The notes under the pieces: generated by a model
What the model saw: the letters and a program-made list of their open reading frames with translations, nothing else
Database searches by the model: none
What the model was told of the DNA's origin: nothing
Position numbers and translations under genes: made by a program
Source: Rhizophagus irregularis
Lineage: Eukaryota
Assembly (NCBI RefSeq): GCF_026210795.1
Contig: NC_089432.1
Coordinates: 5,270,001-5,334,000 of the forward strand
Direction of reading: 5' to 3'
DNA length: 64,000 nucleotides
Shown here: positions 1 to 45,973 of the stretch, piece by piece
How positions within the stretch are numbered: position 1 is the first letter of the stretch
Layout of the letters: every line of letters starts with the position of its first letter

Positions 1-3000
1 ATTATAAATACATTTTCTAATATCAATACGGATGTTAAGTCTTGCTTACAAGAACTTGCAAGTTGTCAAGTAGATAAATTGTCGATTTTCAAAACTGAAG
101 CTCAACTTTCAAATCGGGTAAGTTAAAGCAATGATTTAATAAGTTAATACATGCTTTCTTAGGTAACTTATTATAACTCCATATTTATAGGTAAAACACT
201 TCTGGTCAGAATCAACCGATCAAATGTTAATTCTTCAATGTGATTTAACTACCGTTAATACTGGATGTATTAAACTAGCCAAATTCATTATTGAACAATT
301 TCGAAATGAATATATATCAAAGAGAGATCAAATGGAACGGGAAATGCCTACGAAACATGCATGTATCATTCTTCATATTCATCGAGATCAAGAATCCACT
401 TTTACATCTTTTAATTTCATGTGCGGTTGGAAACAAATGACTATTGAAACATTATCAGGAAGTGACGTTCCTACATCAGGTCTCCTAGATGAATCGTTAA
501 CTCGTATTGTTAATTCAACTTATCCATTCGAAAAAATTTTACAACAAGAACTCTTATGGTGTTTATCGTGTATGAAATATCCATCGAACGACGAGTCAAT
601 CAATTATATAAAGTAAGCGATATTATTTATTTGTATGATATTTAATAATTATATTTATTAAGAATTTTTTTGCATTAAATTATTTTTTAGGACATTAAAC
701 GAAAAAATTCTAAAACATCCAAATTTTATTGAATGTTTGAAAAAAAGAGTCCTTGTATGGGTTGAAGAGAATTCTACAAGTGACTGGCAATATAAGATAG
801 CATCAAATAAACAAAATTTATATCCATACCCTTCATTTTCTGCAGCATTACAAGCTCACGTTAGAACACTTTTTAGAGAACCGATAGCGCGGATTTTATA
901 CGCTTTAGAAAGATTATCGGCGATAAAAACATTTTTCTATGTTTCTGATCAAACAAAGTCAAAAAAAGGAAACTATGAGAAATTACTTAAATTTTGGGAA
1001 CAAATTTTTATGGATAACAAAATTGTCAAAATTGATGATATACCAAATCCAAAACCTGATGGATATAATATGCCGGCGGAAAGTTTACTCGATCTTGAAT
1101 TTCCTTTTTCATTTTATTATATGAAACAAATTGATAGTTTTAAAAGACATTATGAAGAAGAAATATTGATATTACAAAGGGATGATGACAAAATTGACGA
1201 CGAAACTAATGAACTTTACGATTATGTGATTGAAGATCATTTAAAAGAGTTTAAAAATAATCTTCTTACGTCGATTCCGCAATTAAAAAATTCACCTCTT
1301 GAATGGGAATGGGCTTCCGAATTATATTTTAAAGATTTTGTAACCGTTATTGTGTCAAAAGATGGAGAGACAAAGAATAAAAAAATGTTAACAATAATTT
1401 TAAGATTACTCATCGGTACCGATAAAGTGCGTCAACCAATTTTCCTTCACTCATATTGGTGGAGGAATGCTAACGAAGTTTTAGCTCTATTACAATTAGC
1501 TCAAATGTCTCCCATAATAATTAAAAATATTGAAATTCAAGGAAATGCTATTATTAGAGGAAGTTTGGAAAAATATCTAGTTAAAGAAGTGACAAAACTA
1601 ATGTTACAGCGAATTTGTGGAAATTTTGAAGTCGCAGAAAATGCTCATTTGATCGATAAATGGCAGCATGATGTTACAAAAGTATTATCTCTCGTTAATA
1701 AAATAACTAGAGCAAAGAATTTACCAGATCTTCAATTGTTACGTATTGTAAACGATCTAGTTGCAGCAAAGACCATTCCTTTAGATAGCATTAAAGAAAT
1801 TGTTCAACTTGGATTAAGTTTAGACGAGCAAGAAGTTCTTTCCGAAGAATTTATCAACACCGTATTTGATAAGCTGGATAAACTAGAACAAAATGAGAAA
1901 AATATAATTCCAAAAAGAACATTTATCATGAGATGCCTTGCATTGATTCCTATCAAATCAGATACTCTACTAAGTTTTTATAAAAAATTATTCTCGAATG
2001 AACCTTTTCCATTAATGGGTGCAATCATTGAAAGGATATTTATTAAAGAAGACGTAGAAAATGAGGGCATTTTCTTTACGATACTTACAGATTTCGAAGA
2101 AGCTGTAAGACAATCTGCTCGGTTAAATCTTATTAATAAATGTTTAGGAGATTTGGATACAAACATGGCTACTTTATGTTGTGATACCATTGAACAAAGC
2201 TTCTTCATGAATGAGAAATTGGAAAATTTCGCGGCTTTTTTTGGACCGGCTCTTGAAGCTTTATATAAACAAGGAAGACCACCGTTACAAAAAATAGTTT
2301 CTATTGCATTCCTTAAAGAATTCGTTCGTCGATTCTGGGATAGTTTTCTTCCGAAAGATAAAAATAATCCCCTTGTATTTGACAGAGCAGATGAAAACAA
2401 TTTTAATAATGAAATAATTAATCAAATCAATAATATTTTGACTTTTTCTCATCCTTTGATTCATTCACTTAAAATTTATTTTTTAAGAGATTTATGTCGG
2501 AGAGGTTTTTCAATTGATGACATTAAAAGATTTTGTGAAGCTCAAAAAAATTTTTTACCGTGGCTTAGGACTTTCAACTGGGAAGATATTAATGAAAATC
2601 GGTTATCTTTTAATCCATATTGTAATATGCCCGAATATAATGAAACAGAAAACAGCTTTATGGCCTTCTATAGTGTAGGAAATAAGGCACCTTTCCAAAC
2701 ATATATCCAAGGAGTAAAGCAGAATATGACTATAACAGCAAAATTATCTTTCATGGGACTCTTATTTGTACGTCTTCATGCTTTAAGAGCTTCAAGAGAA
2801 TGGCGACATTCAGAAGTGCAATCGGCTGATTTCTTGACTAAAGAACTTACCGGAATAAACTTATCGAATTCATTTAAAACAATTGCAACAAATATCTTAT
2901 CGAATAAGCAACCTTTACTTCAAATTGTCAATCCAGAGATTAATAATACCGATTTGTTTATAAAATCTGTTATCTCACATATTTTCGCATTCCATGCATT

Positions 3001-5670
3001 GGTTGAACCGAATTCATCTCAACTTGCAATGTATCTACACAATCTACAAAATTGTCAGAATATGTTTATTTTAACGTGTATGTCCGACGTGGTATCAATG
3101 GTGTTAAATGCAATTCCTGAAGTCAAGACGAGATATGCCTGCAAATGCGGATGTATATATATAGTTGGAGAATGTGGCAATGTTGTTCAAACTGGTAAAT
3201 GTCCAAATTGTGGAAGTACAATTGGTGGAGCGAATTATAATAAACCAGAAGCTGGGAATACTAGACTTGATGCTGGTCCGGTTCACCAAATAGCAGTAAA
3301 TGATCAATCAGGGTATATTGGAGAAACAGTTAATCAAGATCTGTATCATTCCGTCAGATCTCTTCCTCCTACATCGTATCGTATGCTACATTTAATTATT
3401 CATGTTCTTATTGGAGCGTCTGCACCTCAACCTGCCCTTGCCTTTCTTCAAAAAAATAATAAAGTCGCTTTAGATTCTGAAAAATATTGTATGGATCATA
3501 TTCAAAATGACTGGGACATTCTCAAGAAACTTCTTAATTGTTCAGATGCGGTATGTTTAAAATTTTTTTTTTTTTCTGTTGTTATACCTGTCCAATTAGT
3601 AAAATGAATAAAATTATTAACCAAAAAAATATCTATGATTTAACTAGAATTTGGCGTTAGCGTTCCATTCACTAATTTCTTTAATGATGGAAAAACCTTT
3701 GCCGAATCAGCAAATAAATACATCTGCTGAACGCACGAATTGGGAAACAATGTTCCATAATAATTATATTGCACCACTAACTAAAAATATAAACGAGACA
3801 GCAACCAATTATCGTATGAAATTAGACGAAGCTCTAACTAAAAATAAAAAAGGTAACTTAATTGAATGTGAAATTAATCAGACTTTGGTTATGGATAAAC
3901 AATATCGAAGTGAGAATTTACCAAATTTATGGAGAACGATTGGAATAATTAATTTCGATAGTTTTCGTGCTTATTATATGAGTGATTTGACAAGGAGAAA
4001 CGACGACCATCCATTTCTCTCTGTATTTTTCAAACATTCTAAACAAATAGAATTACTCAAACATCTTTTACCTATCGTAAAATTTGTTCAAATTTTGAAT
4101 GCCAAACTTGGATATCAATTAACAAGGCAAACGGCAAAAGATATGAATTTCAGACAATTTATAGAAAAGGAATCCAATGATGGTAGAAATGAAGAAATTT
4201 TCAATAATTTGAATACCGCTTTTAATGATTTTAAACTTGGTTGGAATACAGTAATACCTTTCGTAAATCGATATCAATGTCATGAACTTCCCAATGAAAA
4301 ACCAGTCATGGGTTATAGTCTTCCAGTTATTTTTGGTTTAGTGGAACCGAAAGATGCAGGAATTTTCTTATGCGCTATTTTAGATTATTTGGTTGACTTG
4401 CAAAACCAGTTCTTACAAGAAGTTATAGTAATTCCACCTGGAACTTGTAAATCTCTCAAGTTTTTAGATGAAATCACATTTGATATCGAACTAGCAATTT
4501 CGAAAACAGAACCAGTTATACCCAATGGATATTGCTTTCAATCTCTACGTCTTGATCATGTTCGTTCTGGAAATATTATAAATTTTGTTTGGGATGATGA
4601 GATTCTTGCATATAGTCAAAGAAATTTAGCAATTGCAAGAGGAGAAGATATTGTGTATGATTTGACAAAAATTGAAGCGGAATTGGCAAATATTCTAGTT
4701 TTCGAGAAAGTTTATATAGAAACTCTACCAGATTCCCAATTATATCTTGAAACTTTCCCGTATCACATGGAGCTATTTCAAGGATGTATGAGAAGAATTC
4801 TTAGTGATATTAAGAATCAAATAACCCAAGAGCCAATCCCGATCGAAAAAATGAATCCATTAGGTTTTTCTATAAATTCCCGTTTAGAATACGCTTCAAA
4901 ATCGACTATAGATAACTCGTCAGAAATTTTGTCATCATTGGAAATACTTCTATGTTTCGTCAAGCGTACAGCAGTTGGAGATGGAGACAGACCCATTAAG
5001 GATTTTGTCTTACAATGGATGAAACTATCATCATTGTATGAACATAGAGAATTCTCTAAAATTTTAGATATTGATTTAAGACTTAAACACTTGGTGTCCT
5101 TATATGAGCTCGTCGAAGAACAAGTTGCCGATGTTAAAATTAAATATATTCACGAAAAATATCAGGAAAAACTTTCAACGGATATGGAGGCGGCAATAAT
5201 GGAATCTTTAGGTTTTAAGCAGCAAACTACAACGAAAAAAGTTATACCAGCAGAGGCATTCGCTTTAGCTTTAAAACGATTCATGCTACGATTCTTAACT
5301 TTAGAAAGTCAAAAGGAAACGGATTCATTAAGCATTTATTTACAAGATGGTTCATTAAATTTTTGGCCTTCAACAGTTCCAGAGGAACTTATTGATGAAT
5401 TGTTTCCAGAAAATTTATTTGTAGCTAATACATATGATGCTTATAAATTCACAGTGAAAAAGATTGAGGTAAGAAAATTTATAATATATATTTTTATATA
5501 TTTAAATAATATTAATCTAAAAAAAAATTTCTAATTACTTAAATGAAAAAACATGTATATGTCGCTAAAAATAGAATCAATGATTTAACAAATCTAAATC
5601 AAACGGAACCTACCGCCAGTAGAATGCTTCAAGAAAATCAAGAAAGGGCCGACAAAAATTTGATATGTAG
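1..5670 (+). CDS. RNF213: RNF213/mysterin-like giant AAA+/E3 ligase, copy A (3' part; 5' end upstream of window; multi-exon; last exon appears damaged)
   Basis: ORFs 224-616, 737-3607 and 3651-5534 are near-identical to exons of copies B and C and are separated by GT-AG introns. RZ-finger-like motif YACKCGCIYIVGECG..CPNCGSTIGG at about 3131-3241. Terminal-exon homolog at about 5543-5670. Confidence 0.85.
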
Positions 5671-11552: not shown

Positions 11553-12716
11553 ATTCATTAGGTTCTTCAGAAATATCTGAAAATACTTTCTGGTTGAGCA
11601 ATATAAAAATAATGTACAATTGCTTGAAGGTAATAATCAAATTTTTTTTCAAGAGTTTATCGTCACATTATAATCATTAATTTTTTTTTTTTGATCTTTT
11701 AGTTTACGGTCTAGCAAAAATGAAATTGGAAACTATCACAAAAAGAGTCGAAAATAGTCAAAATAAACTTACAAGAAAATATAATAGAAATATTTTCTCA
11801 ATTAGTAAGAACAAATTATACCTTTGCTTTACATGAGGAATTCAATCTGTCAAGTGAGTAGCAAATTCACGTTTCACGTATTCAATAAATAAAAAATTAT
11901 TATGGTTTACTTTCTTTTAAAGGACACTTTTCTTTTATTAAACAGCTTCTTCAGTACTTTTTGGCACTGATTTTATAAAATTTATTTATTTTATTTATTT
12001 TTTTTTCTAAATTACTTTTAACATAATTGAACACTAACATTCATGATTTTTTTCTTAAGAATTTATCTTTACAGCGCTTATCTACAACTGAATTAGAAGA
12101 AATATGAAAAAAGAATGAACAACTAATATATAATTATTTCTGTTGTTATAGGATTACAATGAGAAAGAAATCTATACCATTACCAATTGATACTTAATAA
12201 ATTTATTTTATACAAGAATAATTTTTTAATTTAGAACATTATTACAAAACAAGATCATTATTAATATATTATTAAACGATATTAAATTTTAAGTGATTTA
12301 TTCATAAATTTTCATCCACAATTTATTTGGTTTTCCATTAACATAAACTCTCTCGACCTATTCTTAACAAACATATCATAAACATCTATTTAATTAAAAA
12401 TAACAAAAAAAATTAAAAACTAAAAAATATCTTTTATAAATTACACCTGATTTGTCTTTACCAGGGTTAGATTATAAGGGATACGATAGAAAATTTGAAT
12501 CTCCAAAAGTGTAAATGATGAGTATTCAATATTTTAAGTACATCTTTCTGAGATGAATTTTTTTAATCCTCAAAAATTAAAATAAGATGAATTAAATTCT
12601 ATCCATATTAAGGATGCCAATGGTCGGTTTCGGTTTACAGCTGTTTTCATAAGACCTGAATCCGATCTGCCGATCTGGTATTTTTAGCCGGGCACGTGAT
12701 CCTGATTTGATAGTTT

Positions 12717-15700
12717 CTAGGGGTTAGATAAATAAACGGGGGGCCAACTCATAGGTTACACAGACTGATCAATAATAACCAGAACTGTCGCCATATGTAA
12801 TTTTATAAGTAACCTTATTAAAATATGATCGTACCCCATGTTTAAGATGAAAAATCAATTGATAATCATTATAATCCATGAAAAAATAATAATTGATCGG
12901 TAATAAAGAAACGCGAAACTATCTGAAAATATAATTTTTTGTCAAAGTTTCATGTTTATTTACTTTAAAAAACTTGATCGGCGGTTTAATACATCTAAAA
13001 TACATAGAAAATTTCGCTACAACTTGAAAATGGTAGGCATTAAAGGTTAGAAAAGCACAACTTTTATATTTTTTAAATAATATTAACATTTTTTATTAAA
13101 AAGTTTCAAAAAAAACGCGCAATTAATATAAACGAGAATAGTATTGATTTGCCAATACCAAAGCAGCAAAAAAAAGCAGAAGCATTACAAGAACTTGTAC
13201 ATACTAAGCCTAACCTTAAAGGAAAAATGGTATATTTTTTTCCAACATTAGATAAATATTTTGAAGGTGTGCTTATGTATGAAATAAAGGATAAGAAAGC
13301 ATATGTATATAGCGTCAAAGATAATCGCAAATTTGACACATTTTCCAAATGGATAGATTATTTGGGAAACCGAGGATATTTTAAAGGACGTAGGTCTGCT
13401 ACAGCAACCATTTTTTTGGAAGCAAATCCTACAAGTCCGTCAATTGCATCTATTTTATCTACATCAAATTCATTATATTGGAAAACATCATTGTTAATAA
13501 ACACTACAGATATTCTTTCATCAATTCAAGAAAAAGTTAAACCGGGAGGAGAGTTTTCTGGAACTGCAATACGAAAAATTAGTGAAGGTCTTGAACTTCA
13601 TTTTTTCAAAGAAGAAAAATCAGAAAAAAAGCTATTGATTCTAACTAAGAGTGGTTTATATAGATATGAAGTTTATATATTTGATCAAATAGTAAAAGAA
13701 AAATATCTTCCTTTTCCAACCAAAGAAATGAAAAGAACTCTTGATGAAATAATTAATTTTATTAGATATGTTTTTTCTGTTAGTATTTGTTATGGACAAA
13801 GTACTGCTGGTAATTAATTATTATTTTTTATTTTTTATTTATTTATATACGTAAATTTTATTTGATAATTTTTATTCAAAGGTTTTGAACAAGTAACACA
13901 TATTCGGGGTACTCAACTAGTTAGCAATAATAAAGATCATACTCCTTTTGCTTTAATGGAACGGATTGGTCAACCTGATGAGGTATATAGAAGAATAGAT
14001 TGTATACTTGTAATAACAGAAAAAAATATATGCAAAAATTGTGCAAAATTACGAAAAACTTTACAAAGAATTCAACAAAGAATTTTGTCTGGAACAAACT
14101 CAATAAAAGTAACACATGCATCAAAAGAAACTCTTATAAAAAAGGTTAGCCAACAGAGAAAGATTATTAAAGAACAAAATAATATAATTATTGATTTAAA
14201 AGATCATTTAAAAGAAAAAATTGAAAGGGAAGAAGAAGAAGCATCAGGTGAAATTGCAAATATTGTTCATACTGTTACTAAAGGTATTATTAACAAAGAT
14301 ATAGATATTTCTGCTTTTCATCCTATTTTTCAAGAACTTATTCGTATTCAAACTGAAAAACCAAATGGAACAAGATATCATCCAATGTAAGGTTAATTAA
14401 GATGATATTAAATATATATCTTATATTTTTAATTTTTTAGGTTTTTACGTTGGGCTATATCTGTATATAGTAGATCAGGTCATGCAGCTTATAATGCAAT
14501 GAAAACAATTATGCGTTTACCATCAATTTCAACACTTAAAAGTTATATTAACGAAAGTGAACAAAAATCAGGCTGGCAAGATAAAATTGCTAATCAAATA
14601 TTGGCTAATTTGACAATAAATAAAATTTGGGGATATGGAAGAGTGGGATTTTTTTCTCATGATTCTTTTAAAATTCAAAAAGGTAAAAATTATTATTATT
14701 TTTAAATTTTTTCAATAATTTATATTTAATTATTTAATTTGATTGTAAAACATCTAAAAATAGGTCTTCTTTGGAGTCAACGTAAAAATTGTTATGTTGG
14801 TTATTTGGATTTTGAAAATGAAATGCAAGAGTATGAGATGTTTGCTATGCAATGTAAACAAGAAATAGAATCAATATCAATAGAAGATAATTCTACATCA
14901 AGTAATAAACAAAAATTTGGACTTGCAACCCAAGTTCATCAAATTGTTTGGCATTCAATAACACATAATTTTGCATTTCCCATATCTTATTATGGTATTA
15001 ATAATATATCAGTACATAGTTTAAATACATTACTTTTTAATCTTGCAGCAAAATTAGAGTGTATAGGTATATATACATGTGGATCAATTTGTGATGGAGC
15101 AGGAGAAAATAGAATTCATATTAAAAGTTTTGATTGGTATGCATCAAAATGGACTTGTGGTGATATTGTAGAAGTTAATTTTAATAAAGATAAAACATCT
15201 TTTTATGCAGCAAAAATTATAAATAGTAATTTTGAAAAAACAAAATTTACTGTATGTCAACTTGATTGTAATAATCCTAAAAATATTGAAATTGAACGAA
15301 ATTTTATTCGTCCACCAATGCCTTCAAAATTGAAATGGAATGTCAATGAAATATGCGAATTTAGAAATCCAGATGATAATAAATGGTACTTAGGAAAAAT
15401 TATTGAGTTTGATCCAGTTGAAACAACATTATCTGTAGAAATTATAGAAGGAATATATGCAAAAAAGGGATGGAAAGTTTTTAGTTATCATATTAGTAAG
15501 TTTCTTAGACCTGTTTATAATAATCAAGAAATTTTATTAAATTATAAAACAATCAATCCTATTACAAGAGAAGAGTGGTTTTTTATTAGTGATCCAACAC
15601 ATGTTTTTAAAAAACTTAGAAACAACATATCAAAAAGTCATACAGGTGAAAAAAATGCAAGAGAAATAATGTTTAATAAAAAGGAAATTAGTTGGAAACA

Positions 15701-18285
15701 TATAAAAGGTGTATATGAATATACAAATAAACATGCAACTGCTAAAGCTACCAAACTTACAAAATGACATATATGGCTTACTTCATGGAGTAAGATGCGT
15801 GTTGATCTTGCTGAGCATACATTATCAAAAGAAGTTGAAGATGCACTAGCAACTATTAAAGAACTTAAAAATATATCAGAAGGAACAAGAGTAAGTAATT
15901 ATTAATTTATAATAATTAATTTCTTTAAAAAAAACTAATAATAATAATTTATTTTAAGGATTATATCAAATATTCACGAAAGTATCGTGAAATAATGCAT
16001 AGTAAAATTAATTTTCAATCTTTAGAAGATCCACGTATCAATACTTTAAAACAAATTCGTGATTGGTTTATATGTGGTGATAAACAAAAGACAGAATCTA
16101 AAGAGTGGATTTCATCACAATGCCAATTTGATTTGGTTTTATCTATCAATGGTTTTATTGGAATGCTTACATATATTTTAAATAAATATCCAAGTGCAAT
16201 GATTCAAGCAAAAAGGATTTCACAAGATATGCTTGAGGGACTTTTTGGTACAATCCGAGAACTTGGTGGAGACTCTTCCACCCAAACACTTAAATCTTAT
16301 GGACATGCCTTAAACAAATATCAAATTACAATGTTAGTTTCGTCAGAAATAAAGAGTGTTAATTATGGCAAAACAGATAGTACTGGAACTGGTATTACTA
16401 CTTTAGTAAGAAGCAAGGTATGCATATGTTATAAATTATATTATTATTACATCTTTATAAATTAAAATATTTTATTTACAATTAGAGATTATCGAAAAGA
16501 TAAACAAAAAACAACAAATAATGAAGAAAATAATTACATTTATCAAAAACATTTGGTTCGTTTGGCACAAATATCATCTCTTTCTCACAATGTGTTTAAA
16601 AATCTTCTTACAGATGATTTAATTATGGGGAAAATCAAGTTTCCATTAGGACCATACCATAAAAATGTTGATCAGGAAAATATTAGAATTTTTCGCCTAC
16701 AGAGTGAACGCCACCAACTTATAGAAACCATCCTTTATCAGGATTCTATTGATAAATTACTACAAAAGTGGCAAGATATTATTAAAAATATCGCTTGTAA
16801 AGCAATTCTTAAAAAAACAGGAATTCAATGGTTAGCTACTTGGAGCTCTTACCTTGAAAATTGTCTAAATAATTTTAAATGCTCAGGAGTCTGGTATCAA
16901 GATTTTCTTATTGCGTCCAATTTAAATGATTCTTCAACTAAAAGGCTCATTGCATACTTGCTTTTACAAGAGGTTATTAAAATTACCTTTAGTGAAAAAA
17001 CAGTATCAAATATCTCACAAACTCATTTAGCAGCAGACAATAATTTAAAACCAGAAAAAATTATTGTCTTGGAATCATCTGAGGCATCAAAATTTTCCTA
17101 CATCATTGGGTGGATTGTTTATAAGTTAACAAAGAATGACAATATAACAAAATCGCGTCCTGAATTTGAAGCAATTAAAACTCACCTTATGACTCTAAAT
17201 TCAGAACAAGTTGTTTATGAACAGGATGTTCGATCTCAAACAACAAATGTGATTCCCGGTCTGAAGTTTTTAGAATTTATGTATAAAATAGAATCATTAG
17301 TGTTATTATTATTTGAAAAGCATACGGAATTTGGACCCAATATTCTTCAATATATACACAATAGCTTATTATGTAACTTACCATTGTTAGAAAATTTTAA
17401 CACACTCATCAATATCTCTACTCAGATGCTTTCCACGTGTGACTCTATAAATATAACAAAATACGAGTTAAAAGATGATGCTAGAGAATTTCTTTATGAA
17501 AGAATTATTATTATTTATATGAAGAGTAGACAAAAATCCTGGCGAAAATTCAATGATCTCATCCCGAAAAAGGAACCTCAAGCCTTAGGGAAAATCTTAA
17601 AGCTATGCGTAATGATACTGAAAATAACATACCTACTTTAATAAAAAAGTCCAACTTACCAAAAGATCCTATGCTTGGTTTGGTGCAACTTCAAATCTGG
17701 GCACAGTTGGATGGTGCTGAAGGATTATTCTCAAAATTGTTTCTAGTGAGTGAGTTACAATGGTTACTTTGGGCATTTGGAGATAATATAAATAACAAAA
17801 GAAAAAAGAGTTTAATACCTTTAATTTTAGAACACCTGAAAAAGGGTACTTCTTTTTCCAAAGAAGCTATATCAAAGGGTCAAATATTTACAGTTTGAAT
17901 TATAGAATAGTTGTTAATGAAGTCTATTATCCAAATATTTGGTATATAAATAAAAAATAACATTAAAACGGTGCTTAAAGTAAATTGCTACAGTAAATTA
18001 GCTTATTCCAAGGAAAAAAATAACAATTTACAAAAGCTATAGTGACTCAATTGAAATAAAACAACTTTTCCTATATAGACCTAACTTGAGTAATCTTAGT
18101 TTTTAAGATCGGCTGCTTTTCTATGAATGCGCGTCGAAAAAAAATTAAAAAAAAGTAAAAATTTGCGCAATTTTATAGTAGATTTCGATTGTGTAACCAA
18201 TTTATGGTGGCGACAGTTCTGGTTATTATTGATCAGTCTGTGTAACCTATGAGTTGGCCCCCCCGTTTATTTATCTAACCCCTAG
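12717..18285 (+). mobile_element. P-element-superfamily DNA transposon, 5,569 bp
   Basis: 77/78-bp TIRs starting CTAGGGGTTAGATAAATAAACGG (12717-12793 and 18208-18285), differing by one base in a G/C run. 7-bp TSD atagttt at 12710-12716 and 18286-18292. Encodes a P-type transposase. Confidence 0.92.
13030..17898 (+). pseudogene. P-element/THAP9-like transposase, multi-exon, with internal tandem Agenet/Tudor-like domains; disrupted
   Basis: ATG at 13030, then a GT-AG intron to in-frame 13104. Motifs RLPSISTLKSY, SHDSFKIQKG, GYLDF, ICDGAGENR, FISDPTHVFKKLRNN, ISWKHI, SKMRVDLA, RISQDMLEGLFGTIRELGG and YIIGWIVYKL are typical of P transposases. In-frame TGA at 15765-15767 and a 1-bp frameshift near 17565. 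Confidence 0.88.
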
Positions 18286-18961
18286 ATAGTTTGATTTGTA
18301 AAATAAATAACTGAACCGGATCGGTGGGTCAGCGGTCGGGTTCAAAAATTTATTTTGTCCCAGGTCTTATGAAAACAGCTGTAAAACTGCAGTTTTCAAC
18401 CAAAACCAAACCGACCACAAAACCGACCGATAAAACTGAACTACAAAACCGATTGCAAAACGACTGTAAAACCGAATAAAATAATGACATAAAGTATTAA
18501 CTATAATTTTTTGTAATAATATTCGCAATTTTTTTACAACAATAACGCCGATGTTGTGATTTTTCAGAGAAACGAAAAATCACGCAATCAACGAGTAAAT
18601 TTGGATAATTTCAAAAATGAGAATACTATACACAAAAACACTAAAATCATAGTTTTTAATGATATTCTCAATAAACAATGAAATCATTTTTTTTTTCGGA
18701 ATATATTAAAAATTTACAATTAACCTATCGGTTTTTTGATCGGTTTTTTATATATAAAACCAACGGTTAACCGGTCGGTCTTGGACTGAAACCGAACTGA
18801 TAACCGAACTGGTAAAAACTGGTTATGATCGGTTATAACCAAACTTTTGGCATCCTTAATCCATATTGCCTTGGATCTCAAATTATTTTAAAAAATTTAC
18901 TCTAAAATAAATGATCAATTCCTTGTTGCAGATCATTAAAACAATCCCTTCCCACTTAACA

Positions 18962-20407
18962 ATGTCTTGGCAAGAAAATGTTAATGATGATTATGAAAAA
19001 TTATTTGAAGCTGACGAAGGATATGACGTTATTATTTATGCCGGTGAAAATGAAAATGTTAAAGAACTACATGCGTATTCAAATATTTTACGTATCAGGT
19101 CTCAATATTTTCATACAGCACTTTCTGATAAATGTGCAAAGAAAAAGGATGGAAATTTTATTTTAGAAAAACCAAACATTTCTCCAATTATTTTTAAAAT
19201 TATTTTAAGGTAATAAATATATCGTATCTATAAATGTGCTGTATATACTACTGCCTATATACTGTTAAACACTTAATTAATATCTTTCAAAAAATTCTTA
19301 AGATTTTATTTATTGTGGAAAAATTGATTTCACAAAAATTAGAGGTACCCGAATTATTGAAGTTGTTAATAGCAGTTGATGAACTTAGTATTCAATCTCT
19401 AATCCTCATATCGAGGAATATTTAATTAAACATCAATACGAGTTTTTACAACAAAATCCTATAGGAATCCTTGAAACAATTTATCAATATGAAACTTTTA
19501 CAAGTTTATTGGATTATTGTCTTAATAAAATTTGTGAAGAACCTGAAATATTATTTAATACTGACAAGTTTATCAACTTAAAAACACCTATAATTGAATT
19601 GCTTATAAAACAGGATGATTTATGGTTAAAAGAAATTGAAATATGGGATAACTTATTGAAATGGACTTTTGCACAAACTCCTAATATTTCAAAAGATGTC
19701 ACTAAATGGAACAAAGAGGAAGTTACAATTATGGAAAGAACTCTTCATAGATCAGAAGATTTTCATGATAAAGTATTTCCTTATAAAGAAATATTGCCAA
19801 AAGATTTAATTAATAACCTTTTTACAATTTATTTAGTACCAAATAGAAAAACAAATATTAAAATGATTCAGTTATTGTTGATTTTCAACATTTTGCATTA
19901 TTTGCCAGTTGGATTGATAAGAAAAATGGCAATTATTTAAGAAATACTCACTATAATTTCTATCGTTCTAGTAGCGATGGTAATACTATTGCAAAATTTC
20001 ATGAAAAAACTGATAATAAAGGAGCTAATATCGTCGTTGCAAAAATTAAAAATACAAATCAAATAATTGGAGGATATAATCCATTGGATTGGAGTATGTT
20101 TAATAATCGTATGAGTTTTAGAATTACAGCTGATAGTTTTATATTTTCATTTAAAGATTACAAAAATACTGATACAGGGAAGATTGGAAGAGTGATTAAA
20201 AAGGAATATGCTATATCTAGTTCTTATGGTCCAATTTTTGGTTCAAGTCATATAATAGCCAGTTGTTGCGATATAGAGCTGCGTTCAAATGGTAGCAAAT
20301 GGAGTTCATATCCAAATTGTTATCCTGATATTGATATCCCAATAAATTATGAGACTGAAGATTATAAAGTATTTCAAGTTGTTAAAAGAATTAAAAAACA
20401 ATTATAA
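18962..20407 (+). pseudogene. BTB/POZ-BACK-TLDc protein pseudogene
   Basis: BTB motif YDVIIYAGENENVKELHAYSNILRIRSQYF. BACK-like segment EIEIWDNLLKW. TLDc motifs KFHEK.DNKGANIVVAKIKNTNQIIGGYNPLDW, DSFIFSF and YGPIFG. Several frameshifts/deletions near 19305-19420 and 19860-19960. Confidence 0.85.
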
Positions 20408-24843: not shown

Positions 24844-26600
24844 AACCAATCAATTTATTCAAAAGCATTTTTTATCTATTTGCTATTATTTAATGACACT
24901 TAGTATCTACATAAAATTATCAATATATTATGAAAATAGGCCTAAATAATCCAAAAATACATGATAATTGACCATATTATTTTAGAATATTTTTGCTATG
25001 TAGTTTTTTTTACTATGAAACATTCATTGTTGTATAAAATTATTTAATATTCTGCTTTTTATTAGTTACATTTAACCCTGATAACAATCTATATTTATTT
25101 TTTTCATCTGTTACGCTTATACGCAGTAATAAATATAGCGATGATAAAGCGCCTATCCCATTTTCAATTGGTATGGGCGTTTATGCGATTACTTTTTTTG
25201 AACCTTCTAAAAGGAAAGGAAATTAATACTCCAAGTTTTCTTTTAAGTGAGGATACGGTAAAATTGAATATAATACTCCGATTCGTAGAAATAAAATTAC
25301 GATAATATTTTTTTAAAAGAATTCCTATAATATATGTGATACGGTAAGTAAGCAATTTATTTTGTAATATCAGAATAAAACCGTTGTTTGATAAAAAAGG
25401 AAGTAAATGAATAAAATAATCTGTGAAAAACTAATAACCAAATATATAAATTTTTTCTTCATTTAGATGGATAAGATACTCCATTCTCATCAGTATGGGT
25501 GTAGCAAGCATATTTAGAGGGAATGACATGATATTTTTTTTTTCTACTTAAATTCATATTTTGAAAATTTAGTAATATCTAGTAGAAAGTCTTGAATTTA
25601 AAGTCACATGATCAATTTTAGTTACATGTTCAGCGACTAAACCATAACGAGCCTATAATGAACGCTGGAAGATCTGATTTTAATCCAAATTTATTGAATG
25701 GATTACGTAGTGAATTTGTTATATTTTAAAGTTACCGTATTTATTATCAATTGATAATTTAGTTAATTAATAAGTTTGTTAAAATAGAAATAATGAATAA
25801 TCCAACTAATATTAAATATTAAATCATACATTCCGTACTGTAAATAGTAAACCGTGTCATACACTCTTGATTTTGGTTATAAATAATCGTTCACAATATA
25901 AAATACTAAAAGGATTTCCTATAGTCGCTAATCTATAGTAATGGCGATAATTTAGTATAATAATAAGATTGATTAAAATCCGATTATTTTAGTCGAATCC
26001 AAAGATAAATTCGTTTCGATGTCAAAGGAGAACTTAAAGAAAACGTCATCTATTTTAAGATTAATTAATTGTTTTGATAGTTTTTTTCTGTTTCATAACT
26101 CCATTGATTTTGGTAAATCAAAATGTCGATGGTGATAATCAAAATCTATTTTTTATTTATTTTTTTTATAAGTAATTATTTTTAACTTTTAACAATTAAA
26201 ATTTTCTTTAATTCTTTAATGGATATATTTAGATTGATTTAACCGATTAACCAAAAATGTGAATGTACCACATGGTGATTCAACAATTCAGTTTTTTTTT
26301 TTTGAACTATTGATCCTTTTTTTTCTTTTATTCTTGAACCAAAAAGTATTTCATTCTATAAAATTGGTATGAATGAAAAGTTTAATTGTTAAAATGGATA
26401 ACCATTCTTTCTTAGAACATTCAATCGGTATAATAAAAAGCGATCGTCGATTTTTCATTTTCATTTTTTTTTTATTATTTCAAAAAAAAATATATATAAA
26501 TATTATCAATTATTTAGAAATTTTTTTTTTTTTCCTTATGACTGAGACTAAAATTTTATTTGCTTTATCAACGATTTTTTAACGAATTAATTTGTTTAGT

Positions 26601-29600
26601 ATGGAACACGATGACACCAGCGACTCCCAGGACAAGTTTGATAATCATAAAGATGATAACTTTTCATCTTCAGTAGGATACAAGAGAAAGTCATATTATA
26701 GAGTACAAAGAGATGAAATAACTCGTTATTCAAAAAATCAAGTCAGTAATGTCTCAAACTCTATTTATACCGTGAGAAACCGAAGAAAATTTGAAATTAC
26801 AGATGATAAAAATGACAATATCAGCAACACCCAGATAAAGGATAATTATGAAAAAAGTGACTTTTCTTCTTCTGGGTGTGTTAATAAGAAGAAAGAGCCC
26901 AAGTTTTATGGGGGACAAATAGACGAAATCACTCGATATCCGAAAAATAAAAATAGTCAAAATCTACCTATGTACGAAGGCAACCGAAAGAAATTAGACA
27001 ATATGGGAGACTCCTCCATGGATGAGAATGATGATTATGAAGAACAAATAGATGAAACCACTCGATATCTGAAAAATAAAGATCGTCAAAATCTACCTAT
27101 GTACGGAGGTAACCGAAGGAAATTAGGCAATATGAACGACTCCTCCCAGGATGAGAATGATGATTATGAAGAACAAATAGATGAAACCTCCCGATATCAG
27201 AAAAATAATAATAGTCAAAATCTACCTATGCATAACGGTAACAAAAAGAATTTGGATAACACAAGTGATTCCTCCCAGGATGATTATGATGAACAAGCAG
27301 ATGAAACTACTAGATATCCAATTAATCAAAATAACAAAAATAAGTCTATGCATGGAGGTAACCGAAAAAAACTAGGCAATATGAACGACTCCTCCCAGGA
27401 TGAGAATGATGACCATGAAGAACAAATAGATGAAACCACTCGATATCCGAAAAATAGAAATAGTCAAAATCTACCTATGCACGGAGGTAACCGAAAAAAA
27501 TTAGGCAATATGAACGACTCCTCCCAGGATGGGAATGATGATTATGAAGAACAAATAGATGAAACAGCTAGATATCCAAAAAATAAAAATAACCAAAATC
27601 AGTCTAAGCATAGAGATTACCGCAGGAAATTAGACAATATGGGTGGTTCTTCCCAGGATGAGAATGATGATTATGAAGTACAAATAGATGAAATCACTCG
27701 ATATCTGAAAAATAAAAATAGTCAAAATCTACCTATGTACGCAGGTAACCAAAGGAAATTAGACAATATGAACGACTCCTCCCAGGATGAGAATGATGAT
27801 TATGAAGAACAAATTGATGAAACTACTAGATATCCAAAAGATAAAAACAATCAAAATCTGTCTATGCATGGAGGTAACCAAAAGAAGTTAGATAACAATA
27901 GTGACTCCTCCCAAGATGAGAATGATGAATATAAAGAGAGTGACTTTTTATCTTCAGGTCATGCTAATAAGAAAAAAGAACGGGAGCTTTATTATGAAGA
28001 ACAAATAGATGAGACCACTAGATATTCAAAAAATAAAAATAATCAAAATCTATTTATACAAAGCGATAATCGAAGGAAATTAGATGATAACAATGTTTGC
28101 GATTCCCAAAATAGTCAAAATTTAACTAGAGATAATAGAGATAATTATAGCGGTAATAGTCAAGGAAAAAATCGGAAACCAAATAATAGTAGTTCCATAT
28201 GGCCTAACTTGACTACCATGCCTGGCATGATTAATAGATGGATGCCTGGTAGTAGCAAAGACGAAGATGAGATCAAAGTTATTTTCCATGTTCATTTTCC
28301 GGAAGGTATTGATAAAGTTGGAAACCCTGTAGTTCTTGGTAATGTAAAAGAATTAGGATCTTGGAAAAGTCCTATTGTAAAACTTAGTCCACAAAATCGA
28401 ACATATTGGCGATCCAGTCCAGTTATTATATCATTATCTTCTGTAAGAGGCGAAATTCAATATAAATATGCTATTCACACACCAAAACCTGTTTTTCGCG
28501 GAAAAGAAAAAATTGAATTTGAAGGGGTTAATTACGGAGACAATCGCATATTAAATATTAAGAGAAATGACCAATTTGATATTTTCAAAAGCAATCATCA
28601 ATTACCTCGTTTATCTTATATACACGACTTTGCATTTGTGGATTACATTTATAATTCTATAAATGCTGACAACCTTAAAGCTAAAGTTATGGAATACCAA
28701 CACTTATTAACTCTTCACAATGATTATACAAACCGTGCGTCAAATCTCGATTTCATTGCCGATCGCATTGATGTAGAAAACAAAGATAAACGACTTTTCT
28801 TATGTTTTCTCTTAGGACATTATACTTCAAGAAGACGAGGTTCACTTTATGAATTACAGAATAAATTTCAATCTGGTTTGTTGCTTGATGCACTTGAAGA
28901 CTATAAACAAGATACTTTACCTTCAAACATCAAAAATCAGATGTCTAGTGCCATTATAATTTTAATTCAGCATAATGCTTTTCAGATGCAATTTGATTGG
29001 CTCATTATTTTTACAATTGCATCTGAAGTTGACCCTAATTTTTCTTTCATTGACCATTTAAAATCTTTAAAATATTCTAATGACAAATTAGTAAAATTTA
29101 TTCAAGGAATTGAAATTATCAAATCTTATATTGATGGCATTGAACCTGAATTCTATATTAAGGTTGCGAAGGTAAATTTTAATATAATTATTGTGTCAAT
29201 TTTACTTACAATATATCTTTTTTAAAAAAAAATTATTTCTTTACAGTGGTTAATTCAATTGTGTCACAATTTGGATCATCTTTTTGTACTTTGGAATGAT
29301 ATTCTCTTACATAGCAGCGAACTTGACAAAAGTATTTTTAAGTACTTTATTGAACAAATTCGAGAAAGTATCTCTTGTGATGATGCTGTTGCTTTAGAAA
29401 ATAATTTTAAAAGACTCAAAAGAGATTATCGTCAAGATGTATCTGAAGTTTTCCGGTCTCGTACATTATTTTTACTTGAAGGTTCAAACAGAGATTGGAC
29501 AAATGAAAATATCACTGCTATTAACAACCTTCTTCATGAGGATAACCTAAACTGGGGCAGAGAGGAAGTTATTCGATCATTAGATTTAACATCTCAGTCA

Positions 29601-32600
29601 AATACCTTGGAATTATTAAATATATTTCCTGTAATTTTAGATAATTGGTTTCGTAATAATTTTTCCGACACTAAAGAAAAAAAGATACCAAAAATATGCA
29701 TGACTTGGTTTAAAAATCTTTTAAACAAACTTGACACGGGTACAAGCACAAGAAATAGAAAAGAAAACAACATTGTGTTTTCAGTATTTTTACATTTAGA
29801 ACGCTTATACCCATTGCTTGGTAATCGAAAAAATGTTTGGCAAAGTTTAACAACTACTGCTATTGATAGAGTTAGAGTATGCTCGGAATCTCAAATATTT
29901 GGCGCGACAAAGTTTATAGTACAGATAAAAGAACAAGATATTAGAACGTTATTTTTAGATTTGATAAACGAAATGCTGAATAAGGCCGTACAACAAATTG
30001 ATGATCAACTAATAAATAAAATTTATACAATATGCAATTGCAAAGGAAAGACTTTGGAAGTCCCAAACACGTAAGTTCTTTAAAAAATTTGATCTTTTTG
30101 TTAAATACAATTTACTTATATATAAATATATATTTATTTATTTATTAATTTATAATTATTAGAGTGAGCGAAGAAATTTTGTATCATATCATTACTAGAT
30201 TACAAAACCAATCATCCGCATCTGATCCTTCGGAACATCATTTAAATATTCTAAGAGCAAGTCAATTTTGGAGCATTATATTACGTTCTACTGGAAATGT
30301 TACAAAACTTCATTCAAATCCATTTGTTCAACGTGTTAAAAAGTCTATCAATGACCTTGGCGGATTACTCCGTGAAAAGAAGATTGATATACAATTGTTA
30401 CAACAACTCTTAGAGTTTTCTGATGAAATATTATTTCGACACTTCGATGCAGCTGTTTCTAAAAAGAAAGCCATAGTTGATGTGATTGTATCTCGAGATG
30501 AAATTGCAGAACTTAGAAAGCTTTGTGGCAACTTTCAACTTCAACTTGATATACTTTTCAAGTTTTATAACGAATTTTGTCCAATTTCTCAAGTAACAGA
30601 TGTGGATGATTACATTCAAGACGTAAAGAAACATATGGCCAGTTCAAATAAAGTGACGTTGAGAGAAGTGTTATCACCAGATTATTGGGCGTTCCATGAA
30701 AAAACTTTGATCATTTCAAGACGTTGCTACAAATATATTCAATCTCGATCTTTTCGAAATATTTTTGAAGATTGTATCAAGAAAGACACTGCCGCAACAA
30801 ATGTAGACTACATAGCGCAAAAATTAATACCAGCTGTTTTTAAAGAATACGATACTTACTGTGAACAATTTAAGAAATGGGAAAAACTCGAAGTTTCATA
30901 TGCATCTTTGTTCTGGCATAATGTTACAGATATTAATATGGAACTTGATTTAATGGGTTATAAAGGCTATAAGAACCAAGAGTTTCTACAAACCATTAAC
31001 CATCTTTCAAAAATTCCTCATTGGATTAACCGACTTGAGGAGTTAGACACAGTTGTAAAGCTTTTTAAAATAGCACAAGATGATTGGTTAATTAAATCAC
31101 TTAAATTTTTAAGTGACGGACATTTGAAACTCAATCAAATAAATGGGTTTTTCAATTATCTTAATGAAAATATTTCCAATGTTGATCAAGAATGTTGGAA
31201 GTTGATAAAAGAGCTATCAAATGCTGATGGTTTTATAAGTTTTTTAGAAGAAATTGCCGAACACGATATTAAAGATTTGATAAATGATGAGGATGACCAT
31301 TCGGATGAAAGATTGGTTCAAGAGGATACAGTTTCATCACTTATTCAAGTCAAGCAAATTTTATTGCCATTTATGAATAAGAATAAAAAAGATGATATCG
31401 CTAGTTTTTTAGCTTCACTATCAAATATTATAAAAAAGAATCCTACTTTAGAGGAGAAGATTGCATTATGTAACGGTTGTCATATAGCGTTACGAAATAT
31501 ATATAAGAACATTCCAGATCGTGGCGAAGTAACTAAGGAAAAAATCAAAAATGCCGTACTTAATGGGAGTTATACTTTTGGAAGTGATGAAAAAGATGAC
31601 AAGTGTTTTGTTTTATTAAATTATACCTCTAGAACTTCTAAATCAAAGGTGTTGATGACATATAATATGAATGAAATTTTGGATTTACGTGAACGAGCCA
31701 GCCTTTTAATTGCAAAACGGCCAAAACCTAAGATAAGCGTCAACAATAAAGATGAGGAAATTTCTAAAAAAAATATTTTGGATGAATTTACTGTCCAAGT
31801 CGATATTGCGCAAGAAATTATCAAAGTAGTATCCGTGTTAATGCAATTGGGACATTTTGATTACAAAATGTTCGAATATGAATTAATGGGAACAGATAAA
31901 ATGAAAGATTATTTAAAATTCTTAAAGAATGAGCTCAAAAACTGGTAAATATATTATTTTCCCTTCCTTCAGAGCATAATATATAAATGAAAGATTATAA
32001 CAAACTTCATTTCTTACCAATTGCAGGCAAACAATAGTTGATCACGCACAAGAACAGTGTTATTATTTAACATTCTTCCCTGCTCGTCATATTTTAGCAT
32101 TCTATGATTATTTCACATCGGAAAAACCAGATAAAGAAAATGAAGAAGAATGTAAAACATTGGTTAGATTTGTGAACAACAAAGCTAAATTACCATCTCG
32201 TAAGGATATTCAAGGAATTTCACGTGGATCTAAAGATTATCGCAAGATTCTATGCGAGATTGGAAATGAATTAGAAAAAATTTTTAAAAGTATTCCAAAA
32301 CAATCACGCGGCGGACTTAAAGCTGCTGAGGTTTCCGGACAACGCACAACGCTGAATATTATTAAAAAGGGTAAATTATTTATTGCTGCTTGTGCTGACA
32401 AAACAAGAGTTCCAAACATTATTATGTCATTATATGTCAATAATGGGAATTATCCAGAACCGTGGCAACTCTTAATATGTACTACTTCAACTACTATGGA
32501 GGAATTGACTATCTTCATAAAAAGAAGTTTCTTTGCATCAAACAATGGATATGAAAATCACTTATTTTGTATTGCAAATTTAGAATTATTAGACTTTGAA

Positions 32601-41600: not shown

Positions 41601-42657
41601 CAATTGCAAGAGGAGAAGATATTATATATGATCTGACAAAGATTGAAACGGAATTGGCAAATATTCTAGTTTTCGAGAAAGTTTATATAGAAACTCTACC
41701 AGATTCACAATTATATCTTGAAACTTTCCCGTATCACATGGAGCTATTTCAAGGATGTATGAGAATTCTTAGTGATATTAAGAACTTAATAACCCAAGAG
41801 CCTATCCCAATCGAAAAAATGAATTCATTAGGCTTTTCTAAAAATTCCCGTTTAGAATACGCTTCAAAATCAACTATAGGTAACTCGTCAGAAATTTTGT
41901 CATCATTGGAAATACTTCTATGTTTCGTCAAGCGTACAGCAGTTGGAAATGGCGACAGATCCATTAAGGAATTTGTTTTACAATGGATGAAACTATCATC
42001 ATTATATGAACATAGAGAATTCTCTAAAATTTTAGACATTGATTTAAGACTTAAACATTTGGTGTCCTTATATGAGCTCGTCGAAGAACAAGTTGCCGAT
42101 GTTAAAATTAAATATATTCATGAAAAATATCAGGAAAAACTTTCAACGGATATGGAGGTTGCAATAACGGAATCTATAGGTTTTGAGCAGAAAACTACAA
42201 CGAAAAAAGTTATACAAGCAGAAACATTCGCATTAGCTTTAAAACGATTCATGTTACGATTTTTAACTTTAGAGAATCAAAAAGAAACGGATCCATTAAA
42301 AATTTATTTACAAGATGGTTCATTAAATTTTTGGCCTTCAACAGTTCCAGAGGAACTTGTTGATGAATTGTTTCCAGAAAATTTATTGGTAGCTAATACA
42401 TATAATGCTTATACATTCACAATGAAAAAGATTGAGGTAAGAAAATTTATAAACATATATTTAAATTTTAATTATTTTTAAATTAAAATAATAATTTTGT
42501 ATATTAATAATTTCTTAAGCAAACGATGAAAAAACAAGTATATGTCGCTAAAAATAGAATCAATGATCTAACAAACCTAAACCAAACGGAACCTACAGAT
42601 AGTATAAATACGTCAAGAAGACCAAGAAATGGCCGACTTAAATTTGATGCGATGTAG
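26601..42657 (+). CDS. RNF213: RNF213/mysterin-like giant AAA+ ATPase / RZ-finger E3 ligase, copy B (complete, about 14 exons, about 5,000 aa)
   Basis: ATG at 26601, matching the copy C start context. CBM20-like domain at about 28272-28560. Walker motifs SGQGKT, GEAGCGK|TS, WLFFDEIN, GAPGSSKS and VVLLDE|VGLAE, plus LRDYY, GSQFPDD and LLNRFEK, all matching RNF213 AAA modules. RZ finger at 40128-40235. Final exon 42520-42657 ends ..KFDAM*. Confidence 0.92.
26910..27930 (+). repeat. Coding tandem repeat, 129-bp (43-aa) unit, about 8 tandem copies plus 1 detached
   Basis: Unit EEQIDETTRYPKNKNSQNLPMHGGNRRKLGNMNDSSQDENDDY; 129-bp period between 27039 and 27168. Confidence 0.9.
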
Positions 42658-45201: not shown

Positions 45202-45973
45202 CAGCTGTTCGGGACAAAGTAAAATTTTGAACCCGACATCCGGTCTGGCATGTCGGATGTCGGATTGTCACGTAATATACGATAATAGTTAAAATAGTTA
45301 AACGATATAATTCATTGATTCATAATTTCATATCATATTTATATTTATTTTTCCAAATATAAATATAAATATATATATATATATATGTCTCAGACTAAAT
45401 CTTTAACTTATAGTCCTAATATTTGCTCGATATGTTTAGTTTGTATAACTTGCTTGTGCAAGAAGTGGAAATAATTGTATTTGTGCACCCCAAGACTATT
45501 ATAAAAAATCAAGAGGATCTCTTCGCAAACCAATTACAAAAATAATGGATATATAAAATATAAGAAAGCAATAGATTATGCCTTTCTTACATGGTTTAAA
45601 GCTAATGTACCTATTATTACCTATTATACTTAAAGTTCCTGAGAGTTTAGATTTTGTTAACATATGCAAAAGCTGCATCAACAAATATGAAATCAAAACA
45701 ACAAAAACAAATATAAATATTTAATATCTTTGAAACCGCGAAGGTTAGTCCGATAGTTATATCAGAAGATAAAATCAATGTAGATTAGATGATCAAGAAA
45801 TGAATAATCTTATTCCAAAACTCATATCTAAGGACGAAAATCCAAAGAAAGGTTAGTTGTTCAAAGTAAAATCTTGATTCACGTGACAATCCGACATCCG
45901 AGTGATCCGACATACTAGACCGGATGTCGGGTTCAAAATTTTACTTTTGTCCCGAATAATACGAAAACAGCTA
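45202..45973. mobile_element. Tc1/mariner-type non-autonomous element (about 770 bp)
   Basis: Long imperfect TIRs: ttcgggacaaagtaaaattttgaacccgacatccggtct from 45208, with its reverse complement ending at 45956. Outer termini TA|cagctg and cagcta|TA. The right end resembles 18336-18383. Not seen in the paralogous spacer upstream of B. Confidence 0.75.

What the first reader, a model, noticed from the sequence alone, without database searches (positions are those of the whole stretch)
15150..15518. Tandem Agenet/Tudor-like chromatin-reader domains inserted inside a P-element transposase
Seen: between the catalytic-region motif CDGAGENR and FISDPTH, normally a short linker, lies about 120 aa with two similar units: WTCGDIVEVNF...FYAAKII....KFTV....IEIERNFIRPPMP and WNVNEICEFRNPDDNKWYLGKIIE....LSVE....FLRPVY. 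Established: the pattern GDxVEV...W(W/Y)xAxI...xLRP is the Agenet/Tudor (Royal family) signature, and this family often binds methylated Lys/Arg. Inference: a DNA transposase with a built-in histone-mark reader could steer insertion to particular chromatin, like chromovirus integrase chromodomains. I know of no described P-element example. This copy sits inside two older MITEs, consistent with such targeting.
Basis: partly seen in the sequence, partly recalled or inferred. Interest (0 to 1): 0.82.

Follow-up and report, generated by a model that had tools for sequence, protein, structure and literature searches.

The report
Fungal P transposase carrying Tudor barrels
A jumping-gene family of mycorrhizal fungi has about 125 extra amino acids inside its cutting enzyme, predicted to fold as two Tudor barrels like those of plant histone readers, and these likely help it grip the chromatin it inserts into, although the usual methyl-lysine pocket appears to be missing.

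Summary
A 5,569-bp P-type element (77/78-bp inverted ends, 7-bp target duplication) encodes a transposase with about 125 extra residues after its second catalytic Asp. The predicted fold is a tandem Agenet/Tudor pair: best match plant AGDP1/ADCP1 (Foldseek E 4.8e-7; Z 10.9). The insert stays in spliced contigs, occurs across Glomeromycota including Paraglomus, and is under purifying selection (dN/dS 0.48, CI 0.35-0.67). The methyl-mark reading is not supported: 0 of 34 two-barrel sequences keep a full aromatic cage in either barrel, and net charge centres on zero. A second surprise: the N-terminus has no THAP signature and is predicted to fold like the RAMA DNA-binding domain of MPND/CcrM (Z 9.7). 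Best reading: a cage-less Tudor pair that tethers the transpososome to target chromatin (inferred, 0.45). Flanks of the few mapped copies hint at CACGTG-bearing sites rather than heterochromatin. Databases auto-label some members 'Agenet'; four literature searches found no description. This copy is broken. An earlier scan note describes a Tudor-tailed retrotransposon integrase on other DNA, not this family.

The parts
12717..18285 (+). Whole P-type DNA transposon, 5,569 bp
   Evidence: Inverted ends and target duplication
12717..12793 (+). Left terminal inverted repeat, 77 bp, starts CTAGGGG
   Evidence: the same end in metagenome loci
18208..18285 (-). Right terminal inverted repeat, 78 bp (one extra G)
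12710..12716 (+). Target-site duplication ATAGTTT, left copy
   Evidence: empty-site junction in runs X3 and X1 (loose end behind 12716)
18286..18292 (+). Target-site duplication ATAGTTT, right copy
13030..17898 (+). Intron-containing transposase gene; ATG at 13030, first intron 13033-13103
   Evidence: Spliced contigs; tblastn of full-length relatives
13173..13478 (+). N-terminal domain with predicted RAMA-like fold, where THAP sits in animal P transposases
   Evidence: Model residues 24-125 match MPND 7ydt Z 9.7, rmsd 2.8, 89 of 92 aligned; CcrM 6pbd Z 8.4. Foldseek, Pfam and the Atlas gave no clear hit
13482..13787 (+). Second N-terminal domain, RWD/UBC-like arrangement, assignment uncertain
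   Evidence: Best Z 7.9 (Mediator subunit), E2/RWD rows at Z 5-7; within the range the tool calls a common arrangement
14649..14669 (+). FFSHDSF, first catalytic Asp motif (inferred equivalent of D230)
   Evidence: PF21787 covers this region in relatives
15090..15110 (+). CDGAGEN, second catalytic Asp motif (inferred equivalent of D303)
15150..15314 (+). Tudor/Agenet barrel 1
   Evidence: Matches TDRD3 Tudor, Z 10.4, rmsd 1.9, 60 aligned
15336..15512 (+). Tudor/Agenet barrel 2, with invariant Trp at 15471
   Evidence: Matches SMN Tudor, Z 8.9, rmsd 1.7, 57 aligned; Trp in 34 of 34
15582..15602 (+). FISDPTH motif, start of the GTP-binding-type insertion domain
   Evidence: Aligns to Drosophila 335-341 in relative P0006; PF21788 in relatives
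15765..15767 (+). Premature TGA stop in this copy
   Evidence: relatives read through here
16220..16240 (+). SQDMLEG, catalytic Glu motif (equivalent of D528/E531)
17557..17641 (+). Frame change near 17562 in this copy
   Evidence: other runs carry one more base here
12638..18381 (.). Inner host element: 21-bp inverted ends starting CAGCTG, flanked by TA; 168 bp without the P element
12610..18858 (.). Outer host element: ends AAGGATGCCAA, 9-bp duplication ATCCATATT (12601-12609, 18859-18867)

Best explanation
This is a copy of a Glomeromycota P-element family whose transposase carries, inside its catalytic domain, a predicted tandem Agenet/Tudor pair that likely tethers the enzyme to target chromatin without using a classical methyl-lysine cage. 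Shown: element anatomy, in-frame insert, retention in spliced contigs, spread through the fungal group, purifying selection. Predicted: the two-barrel fold, and a RAMA-like fold at the N-terminus in place of THAP. Inferred: the RAMA-like domain binds DNA (element ends or target), the RNase H core cuts and joins with a 7-bp stagger, and the barrels, hanging from the loop after the helix that follows the second catalytic Asp, contact nucleosomal DNA, an unmodified or differently read histone surface, or a chromatin-bound host protein, biasing where the element lands.
For: Fold: best matches are AGDP1/ADCP1 tandem Agenet (E 4.8e-7, TM 0.63; Z 10.9, rmsd 3.2, 127 aligned). Of 29 library hits to the insert, the non-transposase ones are mostly multi-Tudor repeat proteins (P0048, P0063, P0065, P0070, P0072). 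Expressed in the coding exon: contig 11 of X6 runs 14848-17954 with two GT..AG introns removed and the insert kept; spliced contigs of X8 and X12 also keep it. Conserved: 35 of 52 proteins that hold both flanking motifs have a two-barrel-length segment, including Paraglomus P0143. Selected: dN/dS 0.48 (bootstrap 0.35-0.67) over 10 copies, against 0.18 and 0.15 for the flanking core. Non-random landing: 5 of 12 distinct element ends have the flank RTNNNAY (background 2.6%), and 4 of 9 ends or sites with 60 or more flanking bases have CACGTG within 63 bases (background 1.2 per 100 hundred-base windows). Position: in retroviral integrases the helix after the second Asp touches target DNA (recalled, no call).
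Against: No binding was measured. Tudor and SH3-like barrels do many jobs, and a shared fold shows no function. The barrels are much less constrained than the core. Four proteins (three Entrophospora, one unnamed) have only barrel 1, and 13 of 52 have shorter segments of 24-157 residues, not checked at DNA level. The barrels are neither clearly basic nor acidic (net -5 to +6). The CACGTG signal was noticed after the fact, rests on 9 flanks, and two contigs (L003, L020) have unmatched duplications and may be collapsed assemblies. One X8 contig joint skips 14957-15576, but with non-canonical AT..AG ends and only 26 bases on one side.
Confidence: 0.45

Rival explanations
1. The barrels read a methylated lysine or arginine, through an atypical pocket.
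For: Closest solved folds are H3K9me2 readers. Barrel 2 keeps Tyr or His at cage site 2 in 34 of 34 and has an invariant Trp on strand 4, which could lie beside it. Barrel 1 of the window's clade often has Phe plus Tyr/His at sites 1 and 2.
Against: 0 of 34 have three cage aromatics in either barrel; site 3 is aromatic in 0 of 34 in both; site 1 of barrel 2 is Ser/Asn/Cys in 34 of 34. AGDP1 needs Y122, W127, F144, E149 and a large acidic surface (PMC6208443, passages). Mapping was by sequence alignment and aligned ranges, not by coordinates.
Confidence: 0.2
2. The barrels serve transpososome assembly: they bind the element's own ends or another subunit and have no say in target choice.
For: SH3-like barrels bind donor DNA and bridge subunits in integrases (recalled). 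The family lacks a THAP signature and has long 77-bp ends that may need extra contacts. The linker PMPxK and W70/N73/C76/E77 are more conserved than the cage sites.
Against: The closest fold is the chromatin-type tandem Agenet arrangement; barrel 2 can be absent in apparently full-length Entrophospora proteins (P0013).
Confidence: 0.22
3. The insert is a captured host fragment kept only because it must fold without disturbing the catalytic core.
For: dN/dS near 0.5, cage lost, one-barrel and hybrid half-barrel forms exist (P0058, P0184).
Against: Kept in clades only about 35-45% identical in the insert, from Paraglomus to Rhizophagus. No verified insert-free member was seen; P0042 has a 24-residue segment, shorter than the Drosophila spacing and possibly a gene-model error.
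Confidence: 0.13

Closest known systems
Drosophila P element transposase and THAP9
   Same: Split RNase H domain, GTP-binding-type insertion domain, D-D-E spacing, D(2)H motif (Pfam PF21787/21788/21789; 6p5a E 0.0012); terminal inverted repeats; palindromic target flank.
   Different: About 125 extra residues between the second Asp and the D(2)H motif; no THAP signature, RAMA-like fold instead; about 1,370 residues; 77-bp ends and a 7-bp duplication against 31 and 8 bp (PMC7776569, passages); F443/D444/N447 of the GTP site do not align to like residues.
Plant tandem Agenet readers AGDP1/ADCP1 and AGDP3; FMRP/FXR tandem Agenet
   Same: Predicted two-barrel fold and arrangement (Z 9.5-10.9).
   Different: Aromatic cage and acidic peptide surface not conserved by sequence mapping; sits inside an enzyme core.
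Chromovirus integrase chromodomain (Ty3/gypsy)
   Same: A chromatin-reader-type fold fused to a DDE enzyme, proposed to steer insertion (PMC12477314, passages).
   Different: Retrotransposon, C-terminal appendage, chromodomain, tested in the literature; here a DNA transposon, an internal Tudor pair, untested.
RAMA domain of MPND and CcrM
   Same: Predicted fold of the N-terminal 100 residues (Z 9.7 and 8.4).
   Different: Sequence identity 6-11%; no Pfam RAMA hit in 41 members. MPND RAMA binds dsDNA without sequence or 6mA preference in one study (PMC9963953, passages), while another reported 6mA binding (PMC6591016, search listing only, and as cited).

Membership tests
P superfamily of DNA transposons | RNase H-like DDE core split by a GTP-binding-type insertion domain | tested here: met
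   PF21787, PF21788, PF21789 in order in full-length relatives; 6p5a alignment
P superfamily of DNA transposons | Terminal inverted repeats and 7-8 bp target duplication (7-bp class recalled) | tested here: met
   77/78-bp ends, ATAGTTT duplicated, empty site seen
P superfamily of DNA transposons | N-terminal THAP C2CH zinc finger (typical of animal members) | tested here: not met
   No THAP pattern in the first 200 residues of 7 of 7 proteins checked; no THAP Pfam hit; RAMA-like fold predicted
P superfamily of DNA transposons | GTP as cofactor | not testable with these tools
   D528, V401 and S409 equivalents align, F443/D444/N447 do not
Tudor/Agenet (Royal family) fold | Strongly bent antiparallel beta-barrel of about 55-60 residues, here twice | tested here: met
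   Model pLDDT 84.5; rmsd 1.7-1.9 to single Tudors; all 10 PDB profile hits are Tudor proteins, E 0.03-1.4
Methyl-lysine/arginine reading Tudor/Agenet domains | Aromatic cage of three or more residues at conserved sites | tested here: not met
   0 of 34 in either barrel by sequence mapping; coordinates not inspected, so an atypical pocket is not excluded
Methyl-lysine/arginine reading Tudor/Agenet domains | Acidic peptide-binding surface as in AGDP1 | tested here: inconclusive
   Net charge -5 to +6; barrel 2 mildly acidic; no surface map made
Methyl-lysine/arginine reading Tudor/Agenet domains | Measured methyl-dependent binding | not testable with these tools
   Needs peptide arrays or ITC
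RAMA domain | MPND/CcrM C-terminal fold | tested here: met
   Top two rows of 48,161 chains, Z 9.7 and 8.4, 89 residues aligned
RAMA domain | Sequence profile match | tested here: inconclusive
   No hit in Pfam, PDB profile search or Foldseek at E<=0.001

The most novel reading that the evidence does not exclude
A cut-and-paste transposase that replaced THAP with a RAMA domain and grafted a tandem Agenet pair into its catalytic core, so that it reads both a DNA state (such as 6mA at ApT in active genes) and a nucleosome state to choose landing sites near CACGTG-bearing open chromatin: built-in epigenetic targeting in a DNA transposon, and a possible insertion tool for a fungal group that lacks one.
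Probability: 0.2. Interest if true: 0.85.

Novelty: new variant of a known kind. Interest (0 to 1): 0.62.

Why it matters
Built-in chromatin-reader domains are well known in retrotransposon integrases, but my searches found none described inside a P-type transposase. This family gives a natural test of whether a DNA transposase can steer insertion with its own Tudor module, with one-barrel variants as ready controls. It also shows that the loop after the second catalytic Asp tolerates a 125-residue domain, a graft site for targeting modules. A 2017 fungal survey counted only 11 P elements with a transposase (PMC5751038, passages), so this many-membered family in crop symbionts appears under-described.

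Tried and rejected
No whole genome was held, so copy number and genome-wide insertion sites were not measured. Pfam and phmmer against PDB with the single window sequence gave no Tudor hit. Full-length profiles found no PDB match, so the D303 region was never aligned directly to 6p5a. An attempt to obtain an AGDP1 alignment through P0064 gave only unrelated VHL hits. The Atlas gave Tudor/Agenet clusters for the insert at 0.91 but with low recognition, weak evidence, and nothing for the N-terminus. The viral fold library gave only poor matches, TM 0.45 or less in the rows shown. The wide structural search of the insert model never ran, so non-Tudor SH3-like folds missed by Foldseek were not compared. 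No run was on record as an RNA holder, and poly(A) run X19 had no reads over the insert; neither bears on expression. Spliced contigs show transcription of this or near-identical copies, not level or strand. No non-Glomeromycota relative appeared among named hits, but 54 of 174 hits were not listed and the search is word-limited, so the origin of the insert is open. Literature: Agenet + P element + transposase, Tudor + transposase + Rhizophagus, Tudor + chromodomain + DNA transposon and DDE transposase + Tudor + Repbase each returned 0 papers; Repbase Reports and subscription journals are not covered and no supplements were read. No complex prediction was sent: methylated peptides cannot be modelled there. 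Heterochromatin targeting from the MITE nesting was considered and judged unsupported.

Full report
Source and element. The nearest protein is 99% identical to a Rhizophagus irregularis gene model, and all 44 hits are from Glomeromycota. The finding lies in a 5,569-bp element, 12717-18285, with 77/78-bp inverted ends starting CTAGGGG and the 7-mer ATAGTTT on both sides. Contigs in runs X3 and X1 go from the left flank straight into the sequence behind the right duplication. That fixes the duplication at 7 bp and shows an empty version of this site or of a sister host repeat.

Gene. Spliced contigs give the first intron at 13033-13103 and further joints near 13808, 14386, 14676, 15890 and 16415. 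Full-length relatives have about 1,370 residues and carry the three Pfam P-transposase models in order; P0006 aligns to Drosophila transposase 335-562 (E 0.0012). This copy has a TGA at 15765 and a frame change near 17562, so it is probably inactive. L001 shows no stop in any matched segment.

The insert is real. The second catalytic Asp motif and the D(2)H motif are 166 residues apart against 36 in Drosophila; the equivalence of the first is inferred from motif and Pfam position. An alignment of 21 stretches folds with mean pLDDT 84.5 into two strand barrels. Foldseek ranks plant ADCP1/AGDP1/AGDP3 tandem Agenet domains in its first 8 rows, best E 4.8e-7. A second aligner gives Z 10.9 for AGDP1 AGD34, Z 10.4 for barrel 1 on TDRD3 and Z 8.9 for barrel 2 on SMN. 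Sequence evidence agrees but is weak alone: all 10 PDB profile hits are Tudor proteins at E 0.03-1.4, and most non-family hits among 29 library matches are Tudor-repeat proteins.

It is translated and kept. Contig 11 of X6 covers 14848-17954 with two introns removed and the insert present; that contig has a one-base addition inside the insert. Spliced contigs of X8 (to 15478) and X12 (15071-15890) also keep it. One X8 joint skips 14957-15576, with AT..AG ends and 26 bases on its short side; I do not count it as splicing. Of 197 stored proteins, 52 hold both flanking motifs: 35 have a segment of 160 or more residues (34 distinct), 4 have barrel 1 only, and 13 have 24-157 residues, which may be gene-model errors or deletions. 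These searches favour insert-bearing hits. In a tree of 42 catalytic cores (5 short-segment rows named out in advance and others under a length cut-off left out, midpoint root), the one-barrel rows nest among two-barrel clades and the Paraglomus/Gigaspora/Dentiscutata clade has two barrels, so two barrels is likely the older state. Over 10 close copies dN/dS is 0.48 (codon bootstrap 0.35-0.67) in the barrels, 0.18 and 0.15 in the flanking core (L011 dropped for a frame break, and five more distant or broken loci not used; pairs are not independent; a first pass with L011 gave similar values).

It is probably not a classical methyl reader. AGDP1 holds H3K9me2 in Y122, W127, F144 and E149 of its second barrel on a large acidic surface (PMC6208443, passages). 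HMMER alignments to SPF30 and TDRD3 place Ser/Asn, Tyr/His and Ile of barrel 2 on the three cage sites (which Tudor residues form the cage is recalled). Across 34 distinct sequences the three sites are aromatic in 23, 10 and 0 for barrel 1 and in 0, 23 and 0 for barrel 2; none has all three; net charge runs from -5 to +6. One Trp in barrel 2 is invariant (34 of 34) and could form an atypical pocket with the Tyr/His. I could not inspect coordinates.

A second module. The N-terminus has no THAP pattern in 7 of 7 proteins checked. Its model (pLDDT 82.8) matches mouse MPND at Z 9.7 over 89 of 92 residues and the C-terminal domain of CcrM at Z 8.4, the top two of 48,161 chains. Both are RAMA domains (PMC9963953, passages). 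Foldseek, Pfam, the Atlas and a PDB profile did not find it, so the assignment rests on one method. The motif F-x-x-W-x-x-x-L...F-K-G...S-A...T-I-F-L is nearly invariant in 40 relatives. RAMA was proposed as a 6mA sensor, but MPND RAMA bound dsDNA regardless of 6mA in the structural study (PMC11037411, passage). R. irregularis has low 6mA, symmetric at ApT, mostly in genes and promoters (PMC8298701, passages; PMC11258239, passages).

Where copies land. From the window and 27 metagenome loci, 12 distinct ends have a full 7-base flank: 5 match RTNNNAY (background 2.6%) and 7 match xTxxxAx (12%). Four of 9 ends or sites with 60 or more flanking bases have CACGTG 24-63 bases from the end, against 7 sites in 58 kb of the rest of the window. 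The sample is small, the pattern was seen after the fact, and L003 and L020 may be collapsed assemblies. It fits promoter-like or repeat-end sites, as Drosophila P prefers promoters and open chromatin (PMC7776569, passages), better than it fits heterochromatin.

Mechanism. Most likely the RAMA-like domain supplies DNA binding in place of THAP, the core cuts and joins with a 7-bp stagger, and the cage-less Tudor pair contacts target chromatin (0.45). Rivals: assembly or donor-end role (0.22), atypical methyl reading (0.2), tolerated passenger (0.13). All functional steps are inferred.

Novelty. UniRef and JGI auto-label some members 'Agenet domain', so the domain call exists in databases. Four full-text searches found no paper on it. 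The main texts of a fungal DNA-transposon survey (PMC5751038), a R. irregularis transposon study (PMC8647823), a THAP9 ortholog study (PMC10824691) and a targeting review (PMC12477314) have no 'Tudor'; I saw passages only and no supplements. An earlier scan note reports a Tudor-like tail on a BEL/Pao integrase in another genome, an unchecked parallel. Verdict: new variant of a known kind, interest 0.62.

Noticed in passing
window 13173-13478: N-terminal domain of the same transposase has a predicted RAMA (MPND/CcrM) fold instead of THAP; conserved through the family.
   Followed up: partly
window 12693; L003 both ends; L017:3673: CACGTG lies 24-63 bases outside the element end in 4 of 9 usable flanks; near-matches in L021 and in loose ends of runs X19 and X1.
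   Followed up: partly
window 1-5534, 26583-42481, 47400-64000: Three tandem copies, about 21-22 kb apart where adjacent, of a very large gene with a CBM20-like stretch, 129-nt repeats and an RZ-type zinc finger; resembles RNF213/mysterin (recalled).
   Followed up: no
window 18911-20407: BTB plus TLDc gene directly downstream of the outer host element.
   Followed up: no
P0058, P0184: Proteins with a single hybrid barrel made of the start of barrel 1 and the end of barrel 2; recombination or gene-model error.
   Followed up: no
L020:1-90 and L021 3' end: Two different family members have the same repeat sequence several hundred bases outside their ends.
   Followed up: no
window 16659-17954: Run X12 has GT..AG-type joints on the opposite strand (CT..AC) over the 3' part of the element and high depth there, possibly antisense or related-gene transcripts.
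   Followed up: no
window 45216-45976: Another inverted-repeat element related (82% over 51 bases) to the inner host element.
   Followed up: no
P0040, P0041, P0160: Gene models that fuse pieces of this transposase to glyoxal oxidase-type, BTB/BACK or DUF659 domains by their Pfam accessions (names of accessions recalled); probably adjacent genes merged by annotation.
   Followed up: no
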